From Candidatus Jorgensenbacteria bacterium GW2011_GWB1_50_10 (GTDB lineage: Bacteria; Patescibacteriota; Minisyncoccia; UBA6257; GWB1-50-10), in assembly GCA_001004105.1 (NCBI GenBank), contig LCQK01000001.1:166928-230927 (forward strand): a DNA stretch of 64,000 nt, written 5' to 3'. The translations under genes were made by a program, and so were the position numbers. Below are positions 1,713-61,914 of this stretch, one piece after another. Under the pieces are notes generated by a model. The model was given only the letters and a program-made list of their open reading frames with translations, was not told where the DNA came from and made no database searches. Every line of letters begins with the position of its first letter. The first letter of the stretch is position 1.

Positions 1713-1790
1713 GAAGTCCCGCCGCCGATCTCAGGCAACTCCTTTCTATAAGAAGTTCCGGACTTTTATTTCTTTTCTTTCTCTCTTTTT

Positions 1791-1818
1791 TCATTTTCTC
1801 CCATATGGGAGAAAATGA
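1791..1818. repeat. Perfect 28-nt palindrome TCATTTTCTCCCATATGGGAGAAAATGA (CCCATATGGG-core family)
   Basis: Reverse complement identical; intergenic downstream of ComEA-like gene; shares core TTTCTCCCATATGGGAGAAA with copies at 10339, 11038, 61877. Confidence 0.8.
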
Positions 1819-2144
1819 GATATGGCAAAAACTTCAGAGAGATGCTCAGCGGCATATTAGGGAATGGAGCAATCTTTTCTCCGATATAGGAGTAACGGAA
1901 ATTCTGAAGAGTTCGAGCTATAAACGGGTTGATTTCCAAGAAAATCAGGTTCAAATTCGGTTCGCGCCCTCGCCGCGCGGTTCAAAATAGGGGAATTGGG
2001 AAAAAATTTGCCAACCTCCGAAAATTATGACGTTTTAGGAGGTTATCCCCACTTGCCACGTTTGACCAGTCAGCCATAATTTATCATGCCGAGCGTCGAA
2101 GAAAATCCGCCGGCTGGCGGATTAAAAAAAATCAAAAATTTTTC

Positions 2145-5999: not shown

Positions 6000-6073
6000 C
6001 CCCCTATAGCTCAGTCCGGTAGAGCAGCTCCCTTTTAAGGAGATGGTCCCAGGTTCAAATCCTGGTGGGGGGA
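6000..6073 (+). tRNA. tRNA-Lys (anticodon TTT)
   Basis: CCCCCTA TA GCTC AGTCCGGTA GAGC A GCTCC CTTTTAA GGAGA TGGTC CCAGG TTCAAAT CCTGG TGGGGGG A. Confidence 0.85.
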
Positions 6074-6103
6074 CAAGAGATTGGGGTATTTATTTTTGCC
6101 TCA

Positions 6104-6157
6104 CTGCCATCTGATAAGGAGATGGTCGTAGGTTCAAATCCTACACGGGGGACAAGA
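6104..6157 (+). pseudogene. Partial duplicate of the tRNA-Lys 3' half (anticodon-arm 3' side, T-arm, acceptor 3' strand) with compensatory T-stem changes
   Basis: TAAGGAGATGGTC-GTAGG-TTCAAATCC-TACAC-GGGGGACAAGA vs tRNA TAAGGAGATGGTC-CCAGG-TTCAAATCC-TGGTG-GGGGGACAAGA; no matching 5' acceptor strand. Confidence 0.5.
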
Positions 6158-10208: not shown

Positions 10209-10338
10209 AGAGGTTTACGAGAAGCCAGAAAGGCGCCGCTCCGTGAATTTACGGACCGCGGCGCTTTCGTTCTAATCTTCTTAAATAATCTATTAAAGCA
10301 AAAAGCTGGTTCCTGTTTCAATTTCATTTATTAATAGT

Positions 10339-10384
10339 CTCTTCTATTCACTTTCTCCCATATGGGAGAAAGTGAATAGAAGAG
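10339..10384. repeat. Perfect 46-nt palindrome CTCTTCTATTCACTTTCTCCCATATGGGAGAAAGTGAATAGAAGAG
   Basis: Reverse complement identical; 150 bp upstream of the GC-rich orphan gene 10538..10921. Confidence 0.85.
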
Positions 10385-10446
10385 AATCAAACTCAATTTA
10401 AAAATTGAGAGAATGAAAATCTGACTTTAACAATCCACACCCCTTA

Positions 10447-11037: not shown

Positions 11038-11069
11038 ATTCACTTTATCCCATATGGGATAAAGTGAAT
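11038..11069. repeat. Perfect 32-nt palindrome ATTCACTTTATCCCATATGGGATAAAGTGAAT
   Basis: Reverse complement identical; downstream flank of the orphan gene. Confidence 0.85.
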
Positions 11070-11848: not shown

Positions 11849-12306
11849 AGCCGGCAAACCGGAGAACGGGCCCCGCAAACCAGAAGGAAAACGGGCCCTT
11901 TTTCTATAATGAAGAGATGGACAAAGAAAAATTACCACCAGAACTCTATCGCGTGGCATATGAGAAAGGCACCGAGGTGCCTTTCACCGGCAAATATGTT
12001 CATGAAAAAGCCGAGGGTATGTACAGGTGCGCCGTCTGCGGCAGCGAACTTTTTTCGTCGGAGGCGAAATTTGATTCCGGCACCGGCTGGCCGAGTTTCA
12101 CCGAGCCGGCCAATTTGAACAATATTGAACTAAAGGAAGATTTAAGCGGAGGCATGCGGCGCACCGAGGTTTTGTGCAGAAAGTGCGGGGCGCACTTGGG
12201 CCATGTTTTTGACGATGGGCCGCGGGACGGGCGCCTGCCTGCCGGCAGGCAGGGCAAGCGTTATTGCATCAACTCCGTTTGTTTGGACCTGGAAAAGAAA
12301 GAGTAG
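11845..12306 (+). CDS. msrB: Peptide-methionine (R)-S-oxide reductase MsrB carrying an in-frame LPAGRQ insertion
   Basis: CxxC...[23 protein letters not shown] MsrB motifs; ATG at 11917 is an alternative start; 6-aa insertion between DG and GKRYCINS encoded by the palindrome. Confidence 0.85.
12234..12253. repeat. 20-nt perfect palindrome CCTGCCTGCCGGCAGGCAGG, in-frame inside msrB (encodes LPAGRQ)
   Basis: Direct read; reverse complement identical; no stop codon in any frame. Confidence 0.9.
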
Positions 12307-12322
12307 TGTGATAAAAACAAAT

Positions 12323-12370
12323 CCCGCCAGTCCATGGACTGGCGGGGCCGCCAGTCCATGGACTGGCGGG
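12323..12370. terminator. Two tandem 24-nt palindromic hairpins (CCGCCAGTCCATGGACTGGCGG twice) between convergent genes
   Basis: Each unit is self-complementary with CCATGG centre; lies between the msrB stop and the minus-strand ORF stop. Confidence 0.45.
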
Positions 12371-12376
12371 ATGAGT

Positions 12377-25442: not shown

Positions 25443-25526
25443 TGCCCGAGGTGGGAGTCGAACCCACATGTCCTTGCGAACACAGGATTTTGAGTCCTGC
25501 GCGTCTGCCAGTTCCGCCACCCGGGC
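25443..25526 (-). tRNA. tRNA-Leu (anticodon CAA), type II with long variable arm
   Basis: GCCCGGG TG GCGG AACTGGCAGAC GC GCAGGA CTCAAAA TCCTGT var GTTCGCAAGGACATG TGGG TTCGACT CCCA CTCGGGC A. Confidence 0.85.
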
Positions 25527-25545
25527 CTGCCTGCCGGCAGGCAGG
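25526..25545. repeat. 20-nt palindrome CCTGCCTGCCGGCAGGCAGG abutting the 5' end of tRNA-Leu
   Basis: Direct read; first base is shared with the tRNA. Confidence 0.9.
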
Positions 25546-25593
25546 CGAAATTTTATTGATAATGCCACAAATATTGGGTAGAGTAAATATTAT

Positions 25594-34373: not shown

Positions 34374-34413
34374 CCCTGCCTGCCGCCTGCCTGCCGGTAG
34401 GCAGGGCAGGCGG
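34374..34413. repeat. Extended/duplicated version of the palindromic element (CCCTGCCTGCCGCCTGCCTGCCGGTAGGCAGGGCAGGCGG) preceded by a 15-nt copy of the tRNA-Ser 5' end
   Basis: GGAGGGGTCGCATAG at 34359 repeats the tRNA 5' GGAGGGGT; the palindrome family core is tandemly reiterated. Confidence 0.8.
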
Positions 34414-35506: not shown

Positions 35507-35944
35507 ATGGCGAAGAAAAACTTATTAATAATAGTTATCTTGATTGTTGCAGTGATTATCGCGGTTTTTGCGTTTGGTAATAAAGCCGATAATAATCAGG
35601 AAGCAACACCCGGATCTCAAATACCGGTGCCGGGCAATACAATTTTTTATACCGATAGCGGTTTCTCGCCGAACCCCCTCACTGTCAAACTAGGTGAAAC
35701 GGTAACTTTCATAAATCAGAGTTCCAATCCTTTCTGGCCGGCTTCCGCCATGCACCCGACCCATAAAGTTTACCCGGGCTCTGACATTGAAAGGTGCGGC
35801 ACCGCCGAAGAGCCGAATATATTTGACGCCTGCCGCGGGATTCCCGCCGGCGGCTCGTGGTCTTTCACATTTGACGAAATCGGCAGCTGGAACTACCACA
35901 ATCATTTGAACTCAAGTCATTTCGGGAAAATTGTGGTCGAGTAG
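35507..35944 (+). CDS. Secreted cupredoxin-like fold protein (atypical ligand set)
   Basis: Signal anchor; TVKLGETVTFINQS...HP.H...NYHNHLNSSHFGKIVV resembles plastocyanin/amicyanin topology but lacks the canonical Cys ligand. Confidence 0.5.
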   Translation: MAKKNLLIIVILIVAVIIAVFAFGNKADNNQEATPGSQIPVPGNTIFYTDSGFSPNPLTVKLGETVTFINQSSNPFWPASAMHPTHKVYPGSDIERCGTAEEPNIFDACRGIPAGGSWSFTFDEIGSWNYHNHLNSSHFGKIVVE

Positions 35945-35946
35945 CG

Positions 35947-36130
35947 GAACTTTTATTTTTTACGTCAGACACTCTTCGGCTCGGGCGATTTCGTCCCGCT
36001 TCGGCGGGACTCAACCCTTCGCTCGCTTTAGACCGAGCACTCAAAGCATTGAGTGCTCGGTAGCTCGCTCACCCTAAAGGGCTCCGCCGAAGAATGGTAT
36101 TGAGAGTCTGACTTTAAAAAATAAAAGTTC
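35947..36130 (+). ncRNA. Structured repeat element copy A (about 184 nt): long closing stem, two internal perfect hairpins, conserved cores; second copy at 56176
   Basis: Closing stem GAACTTTTATTTTTTACGTCAGACACTCTTCGGC / GCCGAAGAAT..GAGAGTCTGACTTTAAAAAATAAAAGTTC; inner hairpins GTCCCGC-ttcg-GCGGGAC and CCGAGCACTCAA-agca-TTGAGTGCTCGG; conserved TCAACCCTTCGCTCGCTTTAGA and TAGCTCGCTCACCCTAAAGGGCTCCGCCGAAGAAT. Confidence 0.5.
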
Positions 36131-36400
36131 TGCAGGATTACTTGATTGGTTATTAATTGTTAAACGAAGCGGTTTTTATTAAGGAAACCGACTGTAGGTT
36201 TTTCACGCACTAAGCGAAGCCATTACCCCTGACGGCAACTCTCGGAGGCGAAAAAGATTGGTTCCGCGAAGCGGATTTTTCGCCGAGAGCGTAGCGGTGC
36301 GGCTTGTTGCTGGAGCAAGCCGACACCCGGTGACGGAAGAGGTGATGGCTGAACGATCTTGTTTGATTTTGAGCGTTAAAATAAGGTAAACTTCCTATTA

Positions 36401-54323: not shown

Positions 54324-56168
54324 ATGGCTAATTCCTCGGGAAACAGTAAAGACGTAGTTTACTTCGGCCGGACCGATTTTCGGGGCGAGAACCGGCTCTT
54401 CGGCGTGAAGCGCGCCGATCGGCGCCAGCACATGTATGTTATCGGCAAGACCGGCACCGGCAAGAGCGCGCTCCTGCACAATATGATCGTCCAAGATATT
54501 GCAAACGGCGAAGGCGTTTGCGTCGTTGACCCCCACGGCGAACTCGTTGAGGATATTCTCTCCAAAATTCCCGAGGAGCGGCTAGAGGATGTGATTTATC
54601 TTAATCCGGCCGACACCGAACATTACGTCGGCTTCAACGTGCTGGAGTTGCCGGACCCGAAATACAAACATCTGGTCGCCTCCGGCTTAATGGGAATTTT
54701 CACCAAAATCTGGGCGAATGTCTGGTCGGCGCGGATGGAGTACATCTTGAACAACGCCGTCCTCGCCCTACTGGACACGCCCAATTCCACGCTTTTGGGT
54801 ATTACCCGAATACTCGTTGATAAGGAGTACCGGCAGAAAATTATCGCCAATCTCAAGGACCCGGTGGTGAAGGCCTTTTGGGTTCACGAATACGAAGAAT
54901 GGCAGGATAAATTCCGTAACGAAGCCATCGCTCCCATTCAGAATAAAGTCGGCCAGTTCCTTTCAACCGCCCTCATTAGGAACATTGTGGGGCAGGCCAA
55001 AAGCACGATAGACATTTTTAAAATAATGAACGAGGGAAAAATTTTTATCGTAAATCTTTCTAAAGGCAGAATCGGCGAAGATAATTCTGCTCTCCTTGGA
55101 GCCATGATTATCACCAAAATCCAGCTCTCGGCCATGGAGCGCGTCCGCCTTCCCGAGGAGGAACGGGTGGATTTTTATCTCTATGTCGATGAGTTTCAGA
55201 ATTTCGCGACCGATTCCTTCGCGGGCATTTTGTCGGAGGCCCGCAAATACCGCCTCAATCTGATTTTGGCCCATCAGTACGTGGGCCAGCTCGTGACCGA
55301 AACTTCCACCCGGGTGCGGGATGCCGTTTTCGGCAACGTCGGGACAATGATTATTTTCCGGGTGGGGGCGGCTGATGCTGAATATCTGGAGCCGGAATTT
55401 ACGCCGGAATTCACGATTCAGGATATCGTCAATCTCCCGAACTACCACGTTTATTTGAAACTGATGGTAAACGGCGTGACAAGCCGCCCTTTTTCTTCCC
55501 GGACCCTGCCGCCGTTTAAGGTCCAAGCCTCGCCACTTATCAAGGAAAAAGTGATTGCTTCTTCCGTGAAGCGTTATGGCCGGCCGAGAGTGGTGGTGGA
55601 AGAAGAAATCAACCGCTGGAGCGGGATTATGGCCGGGGAAGGAGGCGCTCCCCCAAGCGGCAAGTATGAAGCGACTTGTTCCATTTGCGGCAAACCGGCG
55701 ATTGTGCCTTTCAAACCCGAGCCGGGCCGGCCGGTTTACTGCAGCGACTGTTTTGCCAAAATTGAGGCCGGCGAACTAAAGCCGCTCCCCGCCAAACTTT
55801 TTACCGGCAAACCTGAAAAGAGATATACAAGCGATTTATCGGCCTTAGGCATTGAATTTGAAGGGTCGCCAAAAAAAGAAACGATGGTGGGTGGGCTCGC
55901 CCGCAACGCTTCGCGTAGCGATGCGGGCGGGGGATTTCTAGAGAGAAGGAACCGGCCCGAAAGAAGAAGATATGAGCGCCCGAGGCAGGGTCCGCCACGG
56001 CCGCAATCCATTATCCGGGAAAGTTCGGTGCCGGAGGAGACCGAGAAGCCACTGGGGCTTAGTGAACTCACGCCTCAAGAGGAAAAAATCAAACCCGAAC
56101 GGAGTAAACCCGAGCCGGACGTGGCCGGTCTCCAAGAAGCGCTCCGAAAGGCGCTGGAGAATAAGTAG
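54324..56168 (+). CDS. VirD4/TraD-type (T4SS coupling protein-like) AAA ATPase with C-terminal zinc ribbon and RG-rich tail
   Basis: Walker A GKTGTGKS, VVDPHGE, Walker B YLYVDEFQNF; C-terminal CSICGK...VYCSDCF; no other T4SS genes in the window. Confidence 0.5.
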   Translation: MANSSGNSKDVVYFGRTDFRGENRLFGVKRADRRQHMYVIGKTGTGKSALLHNMIVQDIANGEGVCVVDPHGELVEDILSKIPEERLEDVIYLNPADTEHYVGFNVLELPDPKYKHLVASGLMGIFTKIWANVWSARMEYILNNAVLALLDTPNSTLLGITRILVDKEYRQKIIANLKDPVVKAFWVHEYEEWQDKFRNEAIAPIQNKVGQFLSTALIRNIVGQAKSTIDIFKIMNEGKIFIVNLSKGRIGEDNSALLGAMIITKIQLSAMERVRLPEEERVDFYLYVDEFQNFATDSFAGILSEARKYRLNLILAHQYVGQLVTETSTRVRDAVFGNVGTMIIFRVGAADAEYLEPEFTPEFTIQDIVNLPNYHVYLKLMVNGVTSRPFSSRTLPPFKVQASPLIKEKVIASSVKRYGRPRVVVEEEINRWSGIMAGEGGAPPSGKYEATCSICGKPAIVPFKPEPGRPVYCSDCFAKIEAGELKPLPAKLFTGKPEKRYTSDLSALGIEFEGSPKKETMVGGLARNASRSDAGGGFLERRNRPERRRYERPRQGPPRPQSIIRESSVPEETEKPLGLSELTPQEEKIKPERSKPEPDVAGLQEALRKALENK

Positions 56169-56175
56169 GGAATTA

Positions 56176-56367
56176 AAACTTCTTTTCTTACGCCAGACAG
56201 CTTCAGCTCGGGCGATTTCCCCCGCCTGTCCATGGGCAGGCGGGGTCAACCCCTCGCTCGCTTTAGATCCGGTGGTATGACGCGTCATACCACCGGATAG
56301 CTCGCTCACCCTAAAGGGCTTCGCCGAAGAATTGAGGGGTAAGTCTGGCGCAAAGAAAAGTAGTTTT
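56176..56367 (+). ncRNA. Structured repeat element copy B (about 192 nt), homolog of copy A with compensatory changes
   Basis: Closing stem AAACTTCTTTTCTTACGCCAGACAGCTTCAGC / GCCGAAGAAT..GTCTGGCGCAAAGAAAAGTAGTTT; hairpins CCCCGCCTG..CAGGCGGGG and TCCGGTGGTATGACG/CGTCATACCACCGGA; same conserved cores as A. Confidence 0.5.
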
Positions 56368-56381
56368 GATAAGAGAAGAAT

Positions 56382-56410
56382 TTGACAAAATCAGATTTAT
56401 CTGATATAAT
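56382..56410 (+). promoter_or_regulatory. Consensus sigma70 promoter TTGACA-17-TATAAT driving the 56507 orphan gene through a hairpin-containing 5'UTR
   Basis: -35 56382..56387, -10 56405..56410; 5'UTR hairpin GGTATAAGA/TCTTATACC; SD CAGGAGG. Confidence 0.55.
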
Positions 56411-56506
56411 TAAAGATAGCACAATGGTATAAGATCACTCTGGTCTTATACCCCTACCAGATGCCCGGACGGGCTCAAAGGGTCGGATGACCCAGGAGGC
56501 ACAGCA

Positions 56507-57016
56507 ATGTCGTTACTGAAAACGATGTCCCCGAGGGAGCAAGAGAGGATTCAACACGAACGGCTCGTGAACCGGGATTTCCCCTGGTTGTGGGCCGTGA
56601 GAAGCGAGTGGGATTTTCCAGCGCAGGAGATGACAGTTCAGTACGCTGGTAAATACAATCCACTTCTCAAGGCGTTTCTTGCCTACAATGACTCCATACT
56701 CAAAGAGATTTGGGTTCGAGTTGAGGTCAAACATCCTCGGGGCAAGGACTACACCGGTTACTCTTTCTCCGCGGTGAGGAAAGTAGACGAACCCCGGGAT
56801 CGCTCTTGGGCGGAGGCGATTTTGTGCAGAGTTCCTTACGGGGGCGTAACTCACCTCGCGATTCTGAGTTACCGTCATCATCAAGACGGCACGGAGGATA
56901 GGAGTAGGCGTCAGGTAACGGTCTATCGGCCGATGAAGCCGGAGATGACCCTCGACGCCTTCCTTCTCGAGGCTGTCGAAGAGGCGGAAAAGAACAAGCC
57001 GCGGGCGTGGAAATAA
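56507..57016 (+). CDS. Hypothetical GC-rich orphan protein (169 aa)
   Basis: Strong promoter, SD and terminator; shares VTVYRPMK with the 10538 protein and NPLLKAFL with the minus-strand ORFs at 4645-5199. Confidence 0.55.
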   Translation: MSLLKTMSPREQERIQHERLVNRDFPWLWAVRSEWDFPAQEMTVQYAGKYNPLLKAFLAYNDSILKEIWVRVEVKHPRGKDYTGYSFSAVRKVDEPRDRSWAEAILCRVPYGGVTHLAILSYRHHQDGTEDRSRRQVTVYRPMKPEMTLDAFLLEAVEEAEKNKPRAWK

Positions 57017-57034
57017 CCCGCAGTTGCAGAGTTT

Positions 57035-57066
57035 GGAGGCGACACGAAAGTGCCGCCTCTTTCTTT
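57035..57066 (+). terminator. Rho-independent terminator
   Basis: GGAGGCG acacgaaagt GCCGCCTC then TTTCTTTTT. Confidence 0.55.
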
Positions 57067-57651
57067 TTATCCTTTCTCCACCCGTTCTACGTAATCGCCG
57101 CTTGCCGTGTTTATGCGGATGATGTCGCCTTCATTGATGAAGAGGGGAACATTTACTTTGGCGCCGGTTTCCAAAGTCACGGTTTTAGTGCCGCCCTGGG
57201 CGGTGTTGCCTTTGACGCCCGGCGGCGCTTCCGTCACTTTCAAGTCCATCTTGACGGGCGGTTCGATATTGATGATTTTTTCGTTGAATTTGAAAGCCCG
57301 TGCCTCGCTGCCCTGTTTCAAATAATTTGCCGCTTCGCCCACGATGTCGGCCTTGAGGGCAAATCTTGATTTGGGATTGCCAGAGACGTGGAACCAGTAC
57401 TCCTGCCTGCCGGCAGGCAGGCGCCGCGCATAAATAAACTCAACCGGAATTATCTCAATATCTGCCTCTTTGAACGAGTCGTTCTGGTGGGCGGCGTATT
57501 CCCGGACCTTGCCGGAAATTAAATTCTTGATTTTGAGCTGGGCCACGGGCTTGCGCTGCTGCATCCGGACGAAGGCGTAGTCCAGTACCTCATACGGCTC
57601 GCCGTCTTTAATGAACAACATCCCGACTTTTAGTTCGTTGTAGGAAAGCAT
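57067..57651 (-). CDS. efp: Elongation factor P carrying an in-frame LPAGRQ insertion
   Basis: 194 aa EF-P; FIYARR-LPAGRQ-EYWFHV where canonical EF-P has a short loop. Confidence 0.9.
   Translation of the reverse strand: MLSYNELKVGMLFIKDGEPYEVLDYAFVRMQQRKPVAQLKIKNLISGKVREYAAHQNDSFKEADIEIIPVEFIYARRLPAGRQEYWFHVSGNPKSRFALKADIVGEAANYLKQGSEARAFKFNEKIINIEPPVKMDLKVTEAPPGVKGNTAQGGTKTVTLETGAKVNVPLFINEGDIIRINTASGDYVERVEKG
57402..57421. repeat. 20-nt palindrome CCTGCCTGCCGGCAGGCAGG in-frame inside efp
   Basis: Direct read, perfect copy. Confidence 0.9.
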
Positions 57652-61775: not shown

Positions 61776-61800
61776 CCAGTTGCTGTAAGATTTCTGTCTC

Positions 61801-61834
61801 GCCTCAAAAACGCCCATATGGGCGTTTTTGAGGC
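61801..61834. repeat. 34-nt perfect palindrome GCCTCAAAAACGCCCATATGGGCGTTTTTGAGGC (hairpin after the comEC-MBL stop)
   Basis: Reverse complement identical; CCCATATGGG core; no T-run. Confidence 0.8.
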
Positions 61835-61876
61835 GGTAGAGAAAAAGTTTAGTTTGGAAATTGGGTTGTTCTTTCT

Positions 61877-61914
61877 CTATTTCACTTTCTCCCATATGGG
61901 AGAAAGTGAAATAG
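61877..61914. repeat. 38-nt perfect palindrome CTATTTCACTTTCTCCCATATGGGAGAAAGTGAAATAG
   Basis: Reverse complement identical; same family as 10339 and 11038. Confidence 0.85.

What the first reader, a model, noticed from the sequence alone, without database searches (positions are those of the whole stretch)
35947..36130. Roughly 185-nt multi-hairpin structured element, copy A, directly after the cupredoxin-like gene and upstream of dnaG
The element is closed by a stem of about 30 bp (GAACTTTTATTTTTTACGTCAGACACTCTTCGGC ... GCCGAAGAAT..GAGAGTCTGACTTTAAAAAATAAAAGTTC). It contains two perfect internal hairpins (GTCCCGC-TTCG-GCGGGAC; CCGAGCACTCAA-AGCA-TTGAGTGCTCGG). These are separated by conserved single-stranded cores (CTCGGGCGATTTC, TCAACCCTTCGCTCGCTTTAGA, TAGCTCGCTCACCCTAAAGGGCTCCGCCGAAGAAT). 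A second copy at 56176 keeps the cores but replaces every stem with a different sequence that still pairs. That is the covariation signature of a selected RNA (or DNA cruciform) structure, not a simple duplication. The class is unknown to me. It could be a ncRNA family, a complex terminator or insulator, or the ends of a miniature mobile element.
Basis: seen in the sequence. Interest (0 to 1): 0.85.

Follow-up and report, generated by a model that had tools for sequence, protein, structure and literature searches.

The report
Structured mosaic intergenic repeat, Jorgensenbacteria
The reported 185-nt element is real and is one copy of a small, previously undescribed family of highly structured repeats scattered just behind genes in two groundwater Jorgensenbacteria (CPR) genomes; it looks like a new, unusually elaborate relative of the palindromic intergenic repeats known from other bacteria, and its function is still unknown.

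Summary
Confirmed. Copy A (35945-36132) and copy B (56172-56369) share three sequence blocks, 59 nt in all with 2 differences. Their outer stem and two hairpins differ but still pair. Folding z-scores are about -9.4. No Rfam family matches.

I found a third intact copy (C) in another Rifle Jorgensenbacteria genome and a decayed copy (D) 5.5 kb upstream of the window. About 137 kb from related genomes holds no intact copy. One orthologous site is empty. Another keeps only a left-arm remnant.

All four copies lie 2-30 nt after a stop codon, co-oriented with that gene, and A, B and C have no promoter of their own.

Caveat: the "covariation" in the two inner hairpins is wholesale exchange of perfect palindromes, and related palindromes also occur free-standing in these genomes. 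Only the outer stem shows stepwise compensatory change. The inner helices are invariant, so they are untested.

Best reading: a dispersed, mosaic repeat that behaves like BIME or ERIC elements. Its core, predicted to form a four-way junction, is under purifying selection. It most likely acts as RNA in the 3' UTR of the upstream gene. A DNA-level role is the main rival.

It is a new variant of a known kind and of moderate interest.

The parts
35945..36132 (+). Copy A, whole element (covariance-model match 35944-36132). It starts 2 nt after the TAG stop (35942-35944) of the plastocyanin-like gene and ends 268 nt before dnaG (36401).
   Evidence: flanking genes
35947..35980 (+). A, 5' half of the closing stem. 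P1 (35947-35962) is T-rich. P1b is GTCAGAC (35964-35970). P2 is CTTCGGC (35974-35980).
   Evidence: P1 covaries; P1b and P2 are nearly invariant.
35981..35992 (+). A, conserved core 1, TCGGGCGATTTC. GGGCGA is predicted to pair with UCGCUC of core 2.
   Evidence: It is invariant in A, B and C, so the pairing is untested.
35993..36010 (+). A, variable hairpin slot P3: 7 bp with a cUUCGg tetraloop.
36011..36032 (+). A, conserved core 2, TCAACCCTTCGCTCGCTTTAGA.
36033..36060 (+). A, variable hairpin slot P4: 12 bp with loop AGCA.
36061..36085 (+). A, conserved core 3, TAGCTCGCTCACCCTAAAGGGCTCC. It holds a small predicted hairpin, GCUC...GGGC.
36086..36130 (+). A, 3' half of the closing stem. P2 is GCCGAAG (36086-36092). 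A 13-nt C-free bulge follows (36093-36105). P1b is GTCTGAC (36106-36112). P1 (36115-36130) is A-rich.
56172..56369 (+). Copy B, whole element. It starts about 4-6 nt after the TAG stop (56166-56168) of the TrwB/VirD4-like ATPase gene. Sub-parts: P1 56175-56190 with 56352-56367; P1b 56192-56198 with 56343-56349; P2 56201-56207 with 56323-56329; core 1 56208-56219; P3 56220-56245; core 2 56246-56267; P4 56268-56297; core 3 56298-56322; 13-nt bulge 56330-56342.
56382..57066 (+). Context of B, not part of the element. It holds a perfect sigma-70-type promoter (56382-56410), orphan ORF169 (56507-57016) and a hairpin before the end of efp (57067-57651, minus strand). Together with B this forms a spacer of about 900 nt. 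Relatives have 31 or 122 nt there.

Best explanation
A and B are two intact members of a small family of dispersed, mosaic, strongly structured intergenic repeats, about 185-200 nt long. So far the family is found only in two Jorgensenbacteria (CPR) genomes from the Rifle aquifer.

**Architecture**
- A closing helix of about 30 bp, pyrimidine-rich on the 5' arm and purine-rich on the 3' arm.
- A 13-nt bulge on the 3' strand that contains no C.
- A non-palindromic conserved core of 59 nt in three blocks. It is predicted, not shown, to form a compact four-way junction.
- Two slots, P3 and P4, that hold interchangeable perfect palindromes. At least some of these are related to free-standing hairpins elsewhere in these genomes.

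**Genomic behaviour**
The family is gained, kept or lost locus by locus. Every copy sits just after a stop codon, in the sense orientation of that gene, and A, B and C lack a promoter of their own.

**Inferred mechanism**
The element is transcribed as the 3' UTR of the upstream gene and acts as RNA.
1. The long closing duplex forms a barrier to 3' exonucleases and a double-stranded RNA substrate of the kind RNase III cuts.
2. Because the stem starts 2-6 nt after the stop codon in A, B and D, it could also interfere with the terminating ribosome, as reported for REP elements within 15 nt of a stop codon (recalled from memory, not checked in the paper library).
3. The invariant junction is the binding platform for an unidentified factor, which would explain the purifying selection on it.

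**Shown:** the family, its anatomy, the rate heterogeneity, the position and orientation, the gain and loss, and the palindrome swapping.
**Inferred:** transcription, action at the RNA level, processing, and the existence of a partner.
For: **Family and structure**
- Copies A and B. Copy C. Decayed copy D (L033 2366-2592).
- Folding z is about -9.4 for A and B.
- Cores differ at 2/59 positions against 21/45 in alignable variable parts, p about 1e-7.
- The outer stem has 11 pairs changed on both sides.

**Position and orientation**
- All four copies are co-oriented with the upstream gene and begin 2-30 nt after its stop.
- No promoter-like site lies upstream of A, B or C.

**Strand hints**
- By my hand count on the sequences, G.U wobbles favour the + strand 4 to 1.
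- A's P3 has a cUUCGg tetraloop.

**Gain and loss**
- A is a clean insertion of about 188 nt relative to L028 and L029.
- Model R1 found no copy in syntenic DNA of the closest relatives, L028-L032.
- The L032 spacer is 31 nt and empty.
- L030 keeps a left-arm remnant at exactly the position orthologous to B; 0-1 such hits occur per shuffle of about 261 kb.

**Mosaic nature**
- P4 of B and C and P3 of B have free-standing relatives.
- The window holds 15 perfect hairpins of at least 10 bp, against 0-1 in shuffles.

**Not a known family**
- No Rfam match.
Against: - There is no expression data, so RNA-level action is inference.
- Both strands fold equally well.
- Several slot hairpins are loop-less perfect DNA palindromes. 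That fits a DNA-level origin, or arm-to-arm template switching, as well as it fits selection on RNA.
- The junction helices never vary, so they are untested.
- There are only three intact sequences.
- The 4-to-1 wobble asymmetry is not significant (one-sided binomial about 0.19).
- A, B and D lie on the same strand of one contig. Orientation relative to replication is therefore confounded with orientation relative to transcription.
- No mobilising enzyme and no target-site duplication were found.
Confidence: 0.45

Rival explanations
1. The element acts at the DNA level. It would be a nested-palindrome repeat recognised as single-stranded or cruciform DNA by a recombinase or transposase (RAYT or IS200/IS605-like, or another type), or by a nucleoid protein. 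The conserved cores would be protein-binding sites. The arms would stay complementary through intra-strand template switching rather than through selection on RNA.
For: - The genome is rich in loop-less perfect palindromes centred on CATATG, GCCGGC, CCATGG or ACGCGT.
- P3 and P4 are swapped as whole palindromes.
- Both strands fold equally well.
- The family shows gain, loss and decay.
- A, B and D share one orientation on one contig, which fits a bias tied to the replication strand.
- The upstream flank reads AGTAG in A, B and D. This recalls the GTAG next to REP hairpins. That resemblance is from memory and is only a lead.
Against: - About 92 kb of the source genome and about 22 kb of C's genome were surveyed. 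Most of their genes were checked against Pfam, and none is a transposase, RAYT, integrase or reverse transcriptase.
- No target-site duplication was seen.
- The outermost termini are the least conserved part, which is the opposite of transposase-bound inverted repeats.
- A's hairpin loops are asymmetric, and one is a UUCG tetraloop typical of RNA.
- Pairing of arms 150 nt apart is unlikely in duplex DNA.
Confidence: 0.27
2. It is a gene family for a trans-acting small RNA, released from the upstream mRNA by cleavage in the closing helix. One possibility is a 6S-like mimic of RNA polymerase's open promoter; another is a different protein-sequestering RNA. Copy A lies next to dnaG-rpoD.
For: - The length of 184-198 nt equals that of E. 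coli 6S (recalled from memory).
- It has a long closing stem, a conserved central region, a terminal stem and conserved cores.
- A lies directly upstream of the dnaG-rpoD operon.
Against: - No 6S or other Rfam match was found, even up to E = 10.
- The central region is predicted to be a paired four-way junction, not an open bubble.
- The source genome holds at least three copies per about 92 kb, one of them decayed.
- It is absent from the syntenic DNA surveyed in close relatives.
- A, B and C have no promoter of their own.
- The contexts of B, C and D are unrelated to sigma factors.
Confidence: 0.13
3. The conserved junction is a new self-cleaving ribozyme carried by a small selfish element. 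This would be analogous to the hammerhead, twister and hairpin ribozymes that occur in repeated elements.
For: - The pattern of invariant unpaired or junction nucleotides plus freely variable perfect stems is typical of small ribozymes.
- It has a predicted four-way junction with two arms that carry conserved internal loops.
- It is a dispersed, multi-copy element.
Against: - No match was found to any ribozyme family in Rfam.
- No cleavage site can be nominated.
- There are only three sequences.
- Nothing links it to circular or rolling-circle RNAs.
Confidence: 0.05

Closest known systems
BIMEs / REP elements of enterobacteria (mosaics of palindromic units and conserved extra-palindromic motifs)
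   Same: - Dispersed in intergenic and 3'-UTR positions.
- Built from interchangeable palindromic units combined with conserved non-palindromic motifs.
- The genome also carries the palindromes on their own.
- The stem begins within a few nt of the stop codon, as in the REP elements reported to affect the translation of the upstream gene (recalled from memory).
   Different: - Here the conserved part is a 59-nt core predicted to form a four-way junction, enclosed by a 30-bp closing helix. It is not a short linker between two inverted REPs.
- No sequence similarity.
- No RAYT was seen in the regions surveyed.
- The host is a CPR bacterium.
ERIC/IRU, Correia (CREE) and other MITE-like structured repeats
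   Same: - Size of 100-200 nt.
- A long imperfect palindrome that would fold in mRNA.
- Presence or absence varies between related genomes.
- Decayed copies exist.
   Different: - No target-site duplication.
- The termini are the least conserved part and the interior cores the most conserved.
- No cognate IS element was found.
- The inner hairpins are swapped wholesale.
6S RNA (Rfam RF00013 and related families)
   Same: - Length of about 185 nt.
- A closing stem, a conserved central region and a terminal stem.
- One copy lies next to rpoD.
   Different: - No covariance-model match.
- The central region is predicted to be paired.
- It is multi-copy, with a decayed copy.
- It is absent from the relatives' DNA surveyed.
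Integron attC sites
   Same: - They lie immediately 3' of an ORF and are orientation-specific.
- Structure is conserved more than sequence.
- Their central part varies.
   Different: - No R''/R' core sites (RYYYAAC / GTTRRRY) at the ends, by inspection.
- The conserved part is internal rather than terminal.
- No integrase and no array were seen.

Membership tests
Any Rfam 15 family | Covariance-model match at or near the family's gathering score | tested here: not met
   The whole window at gathering thresholds gave only 3 tRNAs. Scans of A, B and C up to E = 10 gave only noise, 11-18 bits against gathering scores of 37-95.
6S RNA | Match to RF00013 or a related 6S model | tested here: not met
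   No 6S hit up to E = 10.
6S RNA | Largely double-stranded rod with a large open central bubble | tested here: inconclusive
   A closing stem and a terminal stem are present. The central region is predicted to form paired helices and a four-way junction. Those helices are invariant, so the prediction is untested.
6S RNA | A housekeeping gene of one or two copies, conserved across related species | tested here: not met
   The source genome has at least 3 copies per about 92 kb, one of them decayed. About 137 kb of relatives holds none.
MITE | Terminal inverted repeats conserved among copies | tested here: inconclusive
   The arms are complementary within each copy. Between A and B they differ at 14/32 positions, and the outermost bases vary most. 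Only CG(Y)CAGAC is conserved.
MITE | Target-site duplication flanking each copy | tested here: not met
   No direct repeats flank A, B, C or D (sequences).
MITE | Empty orthologous sites | tested here: met
   A is absent between the same two genes in L028 and L029. The L032 spacer is 31 nt. L030 keeps a left-arm remnant.
MITE | An autonomous element or transposase with matching ends | tested here: inconclusive
   None was found in about 92 kb of the source genome or about 22 kb of C's genome, where most genes were checked against Pfam. The rest of the genomes could not be read.
REP / BIME | Repeated short palindromic units, alone and combined with conserved non-palindromic motifs | tested here: met
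   The window has 15 perfect hairpins against 0-1 in shuffles, in families. P4 of B and C and P3 of B have free-standing relatives. This is a likeness of architecture, not sequence homology.
REP / BIME | An associated RAYT (IS200/IS605-type Y1 transposase) | not testable with these tools
   None appears in the loci fetched.
Intrinsic terminator | GC-rich hairpin followed directly by a U-tract | tested here: not met
   No terminator-like site coincides with the element. The 3' arm is A-rich on both strands.
Retron msr/msd | Reverse transcriptase gene directly downstream | tested here: not met
   The downstream genes are dnaG, an orphan ORF, a Zn-dependent alcohol dehydrogenase and DUF2238.
Integron attC | R'' RYYYAAC and R' GTTRRRY core sites at the ends | tested here: not met
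   The ends of A and B do not fit these patterns (inspection).

The most novel reading that the evidence does not exclude
The invariant 59-nt core is a new functional RNA module specific to CPR bacteria. It would be either a self-cleaving or self-mobilising ribozyme, or the docking site of a dedicated protein. It rides on a selfish element and tolerates any palindrome in its two peripheral slots. In other words, it would be a new class of structured, mobile non-coding RNA, not a passive repeat.
Probability: 0.12. Interest if true: 0.85.

Novelty: new variant of a known kind. Interest (0 to 1): 0.5.

Why it matters
CPR bacteria have tiny, streamlined genomes, so a 190-nt non-coding element kept intact at several loci calls for an explanation. 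The core is essentially invariant across two species while everything around it turns over.

If the core proves to be a functional RNA or a protein-docking site, it would be a new regulatory or selfish module in a lineage whose non-coding repertoire is almost unexplored.

If it is "only" a mosaic repeat, it is still, as far as the searches made here show, an undescribed BIME/ERIC-like family in Jorgensenbacteria. Four targeted full-text searches found nothing similar.

It also shows concretely how swapping whole palindromes can mimic RNA covariation. That is a useful caution for motif-discovery pipelines.

Tried and rejected
**Searches that found nothing**
- Rfam at gathering and at permissive thresholds.
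- Three exact-pattern scans of viral contigs.
- blastn of A against the phage and plasmid collections gave only chance matches.
- A protein search with the translation of the ORF that spans C, hoping for spuriously called ORFs over other copies: no candidates.
- Literature searches for CPR 6S RNA, structured RNAs in Patescibacteria, MITEs in CPR, and Jorgensenbacteria non-coding RNA: nothing relevant.

**Searches that found little**
- Exact 18-mer scans of 596 Gb of reference genomes and of the JGI metagenomes found only copy C and its identical duplicates, plus chance hits.
- Model R1, run on loci from five related Jorgensenbacteria genomes (about 137 kb), found no intact copies.

**Ideas dropped**
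- Cross-phylum spread. The "Saccharibacteria" label of C's contig is contradicted by NCBI protein names, which say Jorgensenbacteria GWA1_49_17.
- Strain-level polymorphism of C. The strains are too similar to be informative, with 9 variable sites in 3.25 kb and none in the element.
- Coding potential. The differing hairpin lengths shift the reading frame between the cores.
- Terminator, retron, attC and tRNA-like readings were rejected on their defining features (see the membership table).
- A partner enzyme in the window. Pfam turned up no transposase, reverse transcriptase, integrase, TnpB or IscB.
- ORF169 next to B as the partner. It has no family hits. A confident AlphaFold model has no PDB fold match. 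A, C and D have no such neighbour.

Full report
**1.

It has a closing helix in four parts:
- P1, 16 bp (35947-35962 with 36115-36130)
- P1b, 7 bp, GTCAGAC/GTCTGAC
- a 3-bp CUC/GAG helix
- P2, 7 bp, CTTCGGC/GCCGAAG

It also has two perfect hairpins. P3 is at 35993-36010 and carries a cUUCGg loop. P4 is at 36033-36060. Three blocks lie between these helices.

As RNA the + strand folds at -85.6 kcal/mol, against -47.3 +/- 4.1 for dinucleotide shuffles (z = -9.4). The second copy, at 56172-56369, gives z = -9.4. The complementary strands fold equally well, so folding energy does not pick a strand.

The 22- and 23-nt core blocks occur only at these two places in the window, where 0 matches are expected by chance. 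A covariance model built from the family (R1) was run over the whole window without filters. It finds only A and B plus generic hairpins.

**2. It is not a known RNA family**

Rfam 15 at gathering thresholds reports only three tRNAs in the window. Permissive scans of A, B and C (E up to 10) give only noise, with snoRNA and miRNA models at 11-18 bits.

**3. More copies, and the source organism**

The flanking proteins identify the source as Candidatus Jorgensenbacteria GW2011_GWA1_48_13, from Rifle groundwater.

- **Copy C.** An exact 18-mer scan of 185,579 reference genomes gave about the number of hits expected by chance, plus one real copy. The metagenome scan found three identical duplicates of it. 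C's contig is labelled "Saccharibacteria". Its proteins, however, are named Jorgensenbacteria GWA1_49_17 by NCBI. There is therefore no evidence of spread between phyla. C lies between guaA and a Zn-dependent alcohol dehydrogenase gene.
- **Copy D.** Extending the source contig upstream revealed a fourth, decayed copy at L033 2366-2592. It starts 2 nt after the stop codon of a Na+/H+ exchanger gene. It keeps the left arm through GCTTCGGCTCG and keeps the right arm. Its interior has diverged, it has lost the P1b pairing, and its folding z is only -2.6.
- **No further copies.** None turned up in about 10 more kb of the source genome, in the rest of C's contig, or in about 137 kb from five related genomes.

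**4. Anatomy and conservation**

Between A and B the three cores (12 + 22 + 25 nt) differ at 2 of 59 positions. The P1 arms and the 13-nt 3' bulge differ at 21 of 45 (Fisher p about 1e-7). P3 and P4 cannot be aligned at all.

On the alignment of A, B and C:
- 95% of predicted pair cells are standard pairs.
- 24 pairs changed on both sides. No shuffle of 500 reached this, and slid controls gave 2-6.
- All of that signal comes from the outer stem (11 pairs), P3 (4 pairs) and P4 (9 pairs).
- P2 never changes on both sides.
- The helices RNAalifold predicts inside the cores never vary at all. These are GGGCGA/UCGCUC, GCU/AGC and GCUC/GGGC, which would together make a compact four-way junction. They are therefore neither supported nor contradicted.
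- The 3' bulge between P2 and P1b is 13 nt long and free of C in all three copies, although its sequence differs.

**5. A caveat on the "covariation"**

The variable hairpins are not the product of stepwise compensatory change.
- B's P4 core, GGTGGTATGACGCGTCATACCACC, recurs exactly as a free-standing hairpin after an unrelated gene in a relative (L030 20316-20339). A variant of this palindrome, closest to C's P4, follows the alcohol dehydrogenase gene in C's genome (L038 8104-8123).
- B's P3 is 22/26 identical, by my hand alignment, to a free tandem hairpin at window 12321-12372 (sequences).
- The window contains 15 perfect hairpins of at least 10 bp, against 0-1 in shuffles. Nine are loop-less palindromes centred on CATATG, GCCGGC or ACGCGT.

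P3 and P4 are thus slots filled by whole palindromes that have relatives among the genome's free-standing hairpins. Any palindrome pairs by construction. Only the outer stem shows transition-type double substitutions, for example TTTTATTTTTT, CTTCTTTTCTT and CTTTTTCTTCCC with matching purine changes on the other arm. Those need either selection for pairing or correction of one arm against the other.

**6. Genomic behaviour**

All four copies lie in the sense orientation of the gene upstream. The stem begins 2-6 nt after the stop codon in A, B and D, and about 30 nt after it in C. No promoter-like site precedes A, B or C.

In the closest relatives (DnaG 74-75% identical, the TrwB/VirD4-like ATPase 81-83% identical) the same gene pairs are adjacent, but R1 finds nothing there.
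- **Site of A.** A is a clean extra segment of about 188 nt right after the conserved stop codon.
- **Site of B.** One relative has a spacer of only 31 nt (L032). Another (L030) begins its 122-nt spacer with TTAAAACTTTTTCCGCCAG. That is a recognisable left-arm remnant at exactly the orthologous position. A pattern for this arm gives 0-1 hits per shuffle of about 261 kb.
- **In the window, B's spacer is about 900 nt.** B shares it with a perfect sigma-70-type promoter, an orphan 169-aa ORF and a hairpin.

The family is therefore gained, retained or eroded locus by locus. B has stayed intact where a relative's copy decayed.

Most genes in the surveyed regions were checked against Pfam. No transposase, RAYT, integrase, reverse transcriptase, TnpB or IscB turned up. 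No target-site duplications are visible.

**7. Interpretation**

Dispersal, mosaic construction, a position just past the stop codon and birth-and-death dynamics put the element closest in behaviour to BIME/REP, ERIC and Correia-type structured repeats.

It differs from all of them. Its most conserved part is an internal, non-palindromic 59-nt core, and its termini are the least conserved part. That rate pattern, together with B's retention where a relative's copy decayed, argues for purifying selection on the core.

I judge RNA-level action in the 3' UTR of the upstream gene the most likely (0.45), for these reasons:
- sense orientation in 4 of 4 copies
- no promoter of its own at A, B or C
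- a UUCG tetraloop in A's P3
- G.U wobbles on the + strand 4 to 1 (my hand count; not significant)
- pairing between arms 150 nt apart

In that model the closing helix acts as an exonuclease barrier and an RNase III-type substrate. Being so close to the stop codon, it may also act as an obstacle to the terminating ribosome. The junction would be a binding platform for an unknown factor.

The main rival (0.27) is a DNA-level element, recognised as folded single-stranded DNA or bound by a protein, with its palindromes maintained by template switching. The abundance of loop-less palindromes and the confounding with replication direction keep this reading alive.

A trans-acting RNA, 6S-like or otherwise, is less likely (0.13). 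There is no model match, the family is multi-copy with a decayed member, and it was not found in the relatives' DNA surveyed.

A new ribozyme is possible but unsupported (0.05).

**8. Novelty and score**

The family has no Rfam match and I found no literature on it. Its architecture is a new variant of the known kind "structured dispersed intergenic repeat".

Interest is moderate (0.5). The element is real, unusual and in an under-studied lineage. But the family is so far narrow, with three intact copies in two genomes from one aquifer, and there is no functional evidence.

Noticed in passing
window 1791-1818, 10338-10385, 11038-11069, 61800-61835, 61877-61914: A family of loop-less perfect palindromes centred on CCCATATGGG, such as CTTTCTCCCATATGGGAGAAAG, lies in intergenic spacers. 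They resemble REP units or bidirectional terminators. One copy is also embedded in decayed element D.
   Followed up: partly
window 12234-12253, 25525-25546, 57402-57421 (related: 34384-34412); 12321-12372: A second set of GC-rich perfect palindromes. CCTGCCTGCCGGCAGGCAGG occurs at least three times, and CCCGCCAGTCCATGGACTGGCGGG occurs as a tandem pair. By my hand alignment the tandem pair is 22/26 identical to P3 of copy B. Overall the window has 15 perfect hairpins of at least 10 bp, against 0-1 in shuffles.
   Followed up: partly
L033 2366-2592 (source contig, about 5.5 kb upstream of the window start): Decayed copy D of the element. It keeps the left and right arms, which are closest to those of copy C from the other species. 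Its interior has diverged and carries an inserted CATATG palindrome. Its folding z is only -2.6.
   Followed up: yes
window 1789-1856 (minus strand) versus L033 2489-2556: A 68-nt module (GCCGC[C/T]GAGCATCTCTCTGAAGTTTTTGCCA plus a palindrome) is 93% identical between decayed copy D and the spacer upstream of the ribonucleotide reductase gene. It may be another composite repeat or a second decayed element.
   Followed up: no
window 56382-57066: This stretch is absent from the spacer between the TrwB/VirD4-like ATPase gene and efp in three relatives. It holds a perfect TTGACA-17-TATAAT promoter and orphan ORF169 (56507-57016). ORF169 belongs to a rare family: 35 clusters among 1.84 billion representative proteins. 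It has invariant P26, W27, W29 and W69, a confident AlphaFold model (pLDDT 88.9), no Pfam, NCBIfam, PHROG or PADLOC hit, and no PDB fold match.
   Followed up: partly
L030 11825-11946 and L029 2508-2620 (relatives): The relatives' sites are not all empty. L030 starts with a left-arm remnant, TTAAAACTTTTTCCGCCAG, at the position orthologous to B. The spacer upstream of dnaG in L029 holds a 29-nt stretch that is 26/29 identical to the P3 region of copy D (z about 7-8 against shuffles). Both hint at older, eroded members of the family.
   Followed up: partly
L003 (CAZGRD010000012.1): The GTDB/TPA record title says "uncultured Candidatus Saccharibacteria". The identical GyrB and GuaA proteins are named Jorgensenbacteria GWA1_49_17 / Parcubacteria GWC1_43_11 in NCBI. 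One of the two labels must be wrong.
   Followed up: yes
window 35941-35946, 56164-56170; L033 2363-2367: The bases just before the stem read (A/G)AGTAG in A, B and D. In A and B this includes the upstream gene's TAG stop codon. In D it follows the stop codon. The motif recalls the GTAG next to REP hairpins that RAYT transposases recognise (recalled from memory). It is unexplained.
   Followed up: no
window 6036-6078 versus 6115-6157: A 43-nt direct repeat (86% identical) overlaps the 3' part of the tRNA gene at 6000-6073 and recurs just downstream. It may be a partial tRNA duplication.
   Followed up: no
L026 position 1 (contig end): One independent assembly of the same population breaks inside copy A; the contig starts at model position 12. 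This is the behaviour expected of a repeat that confuses assemblers.
   Followed up: no
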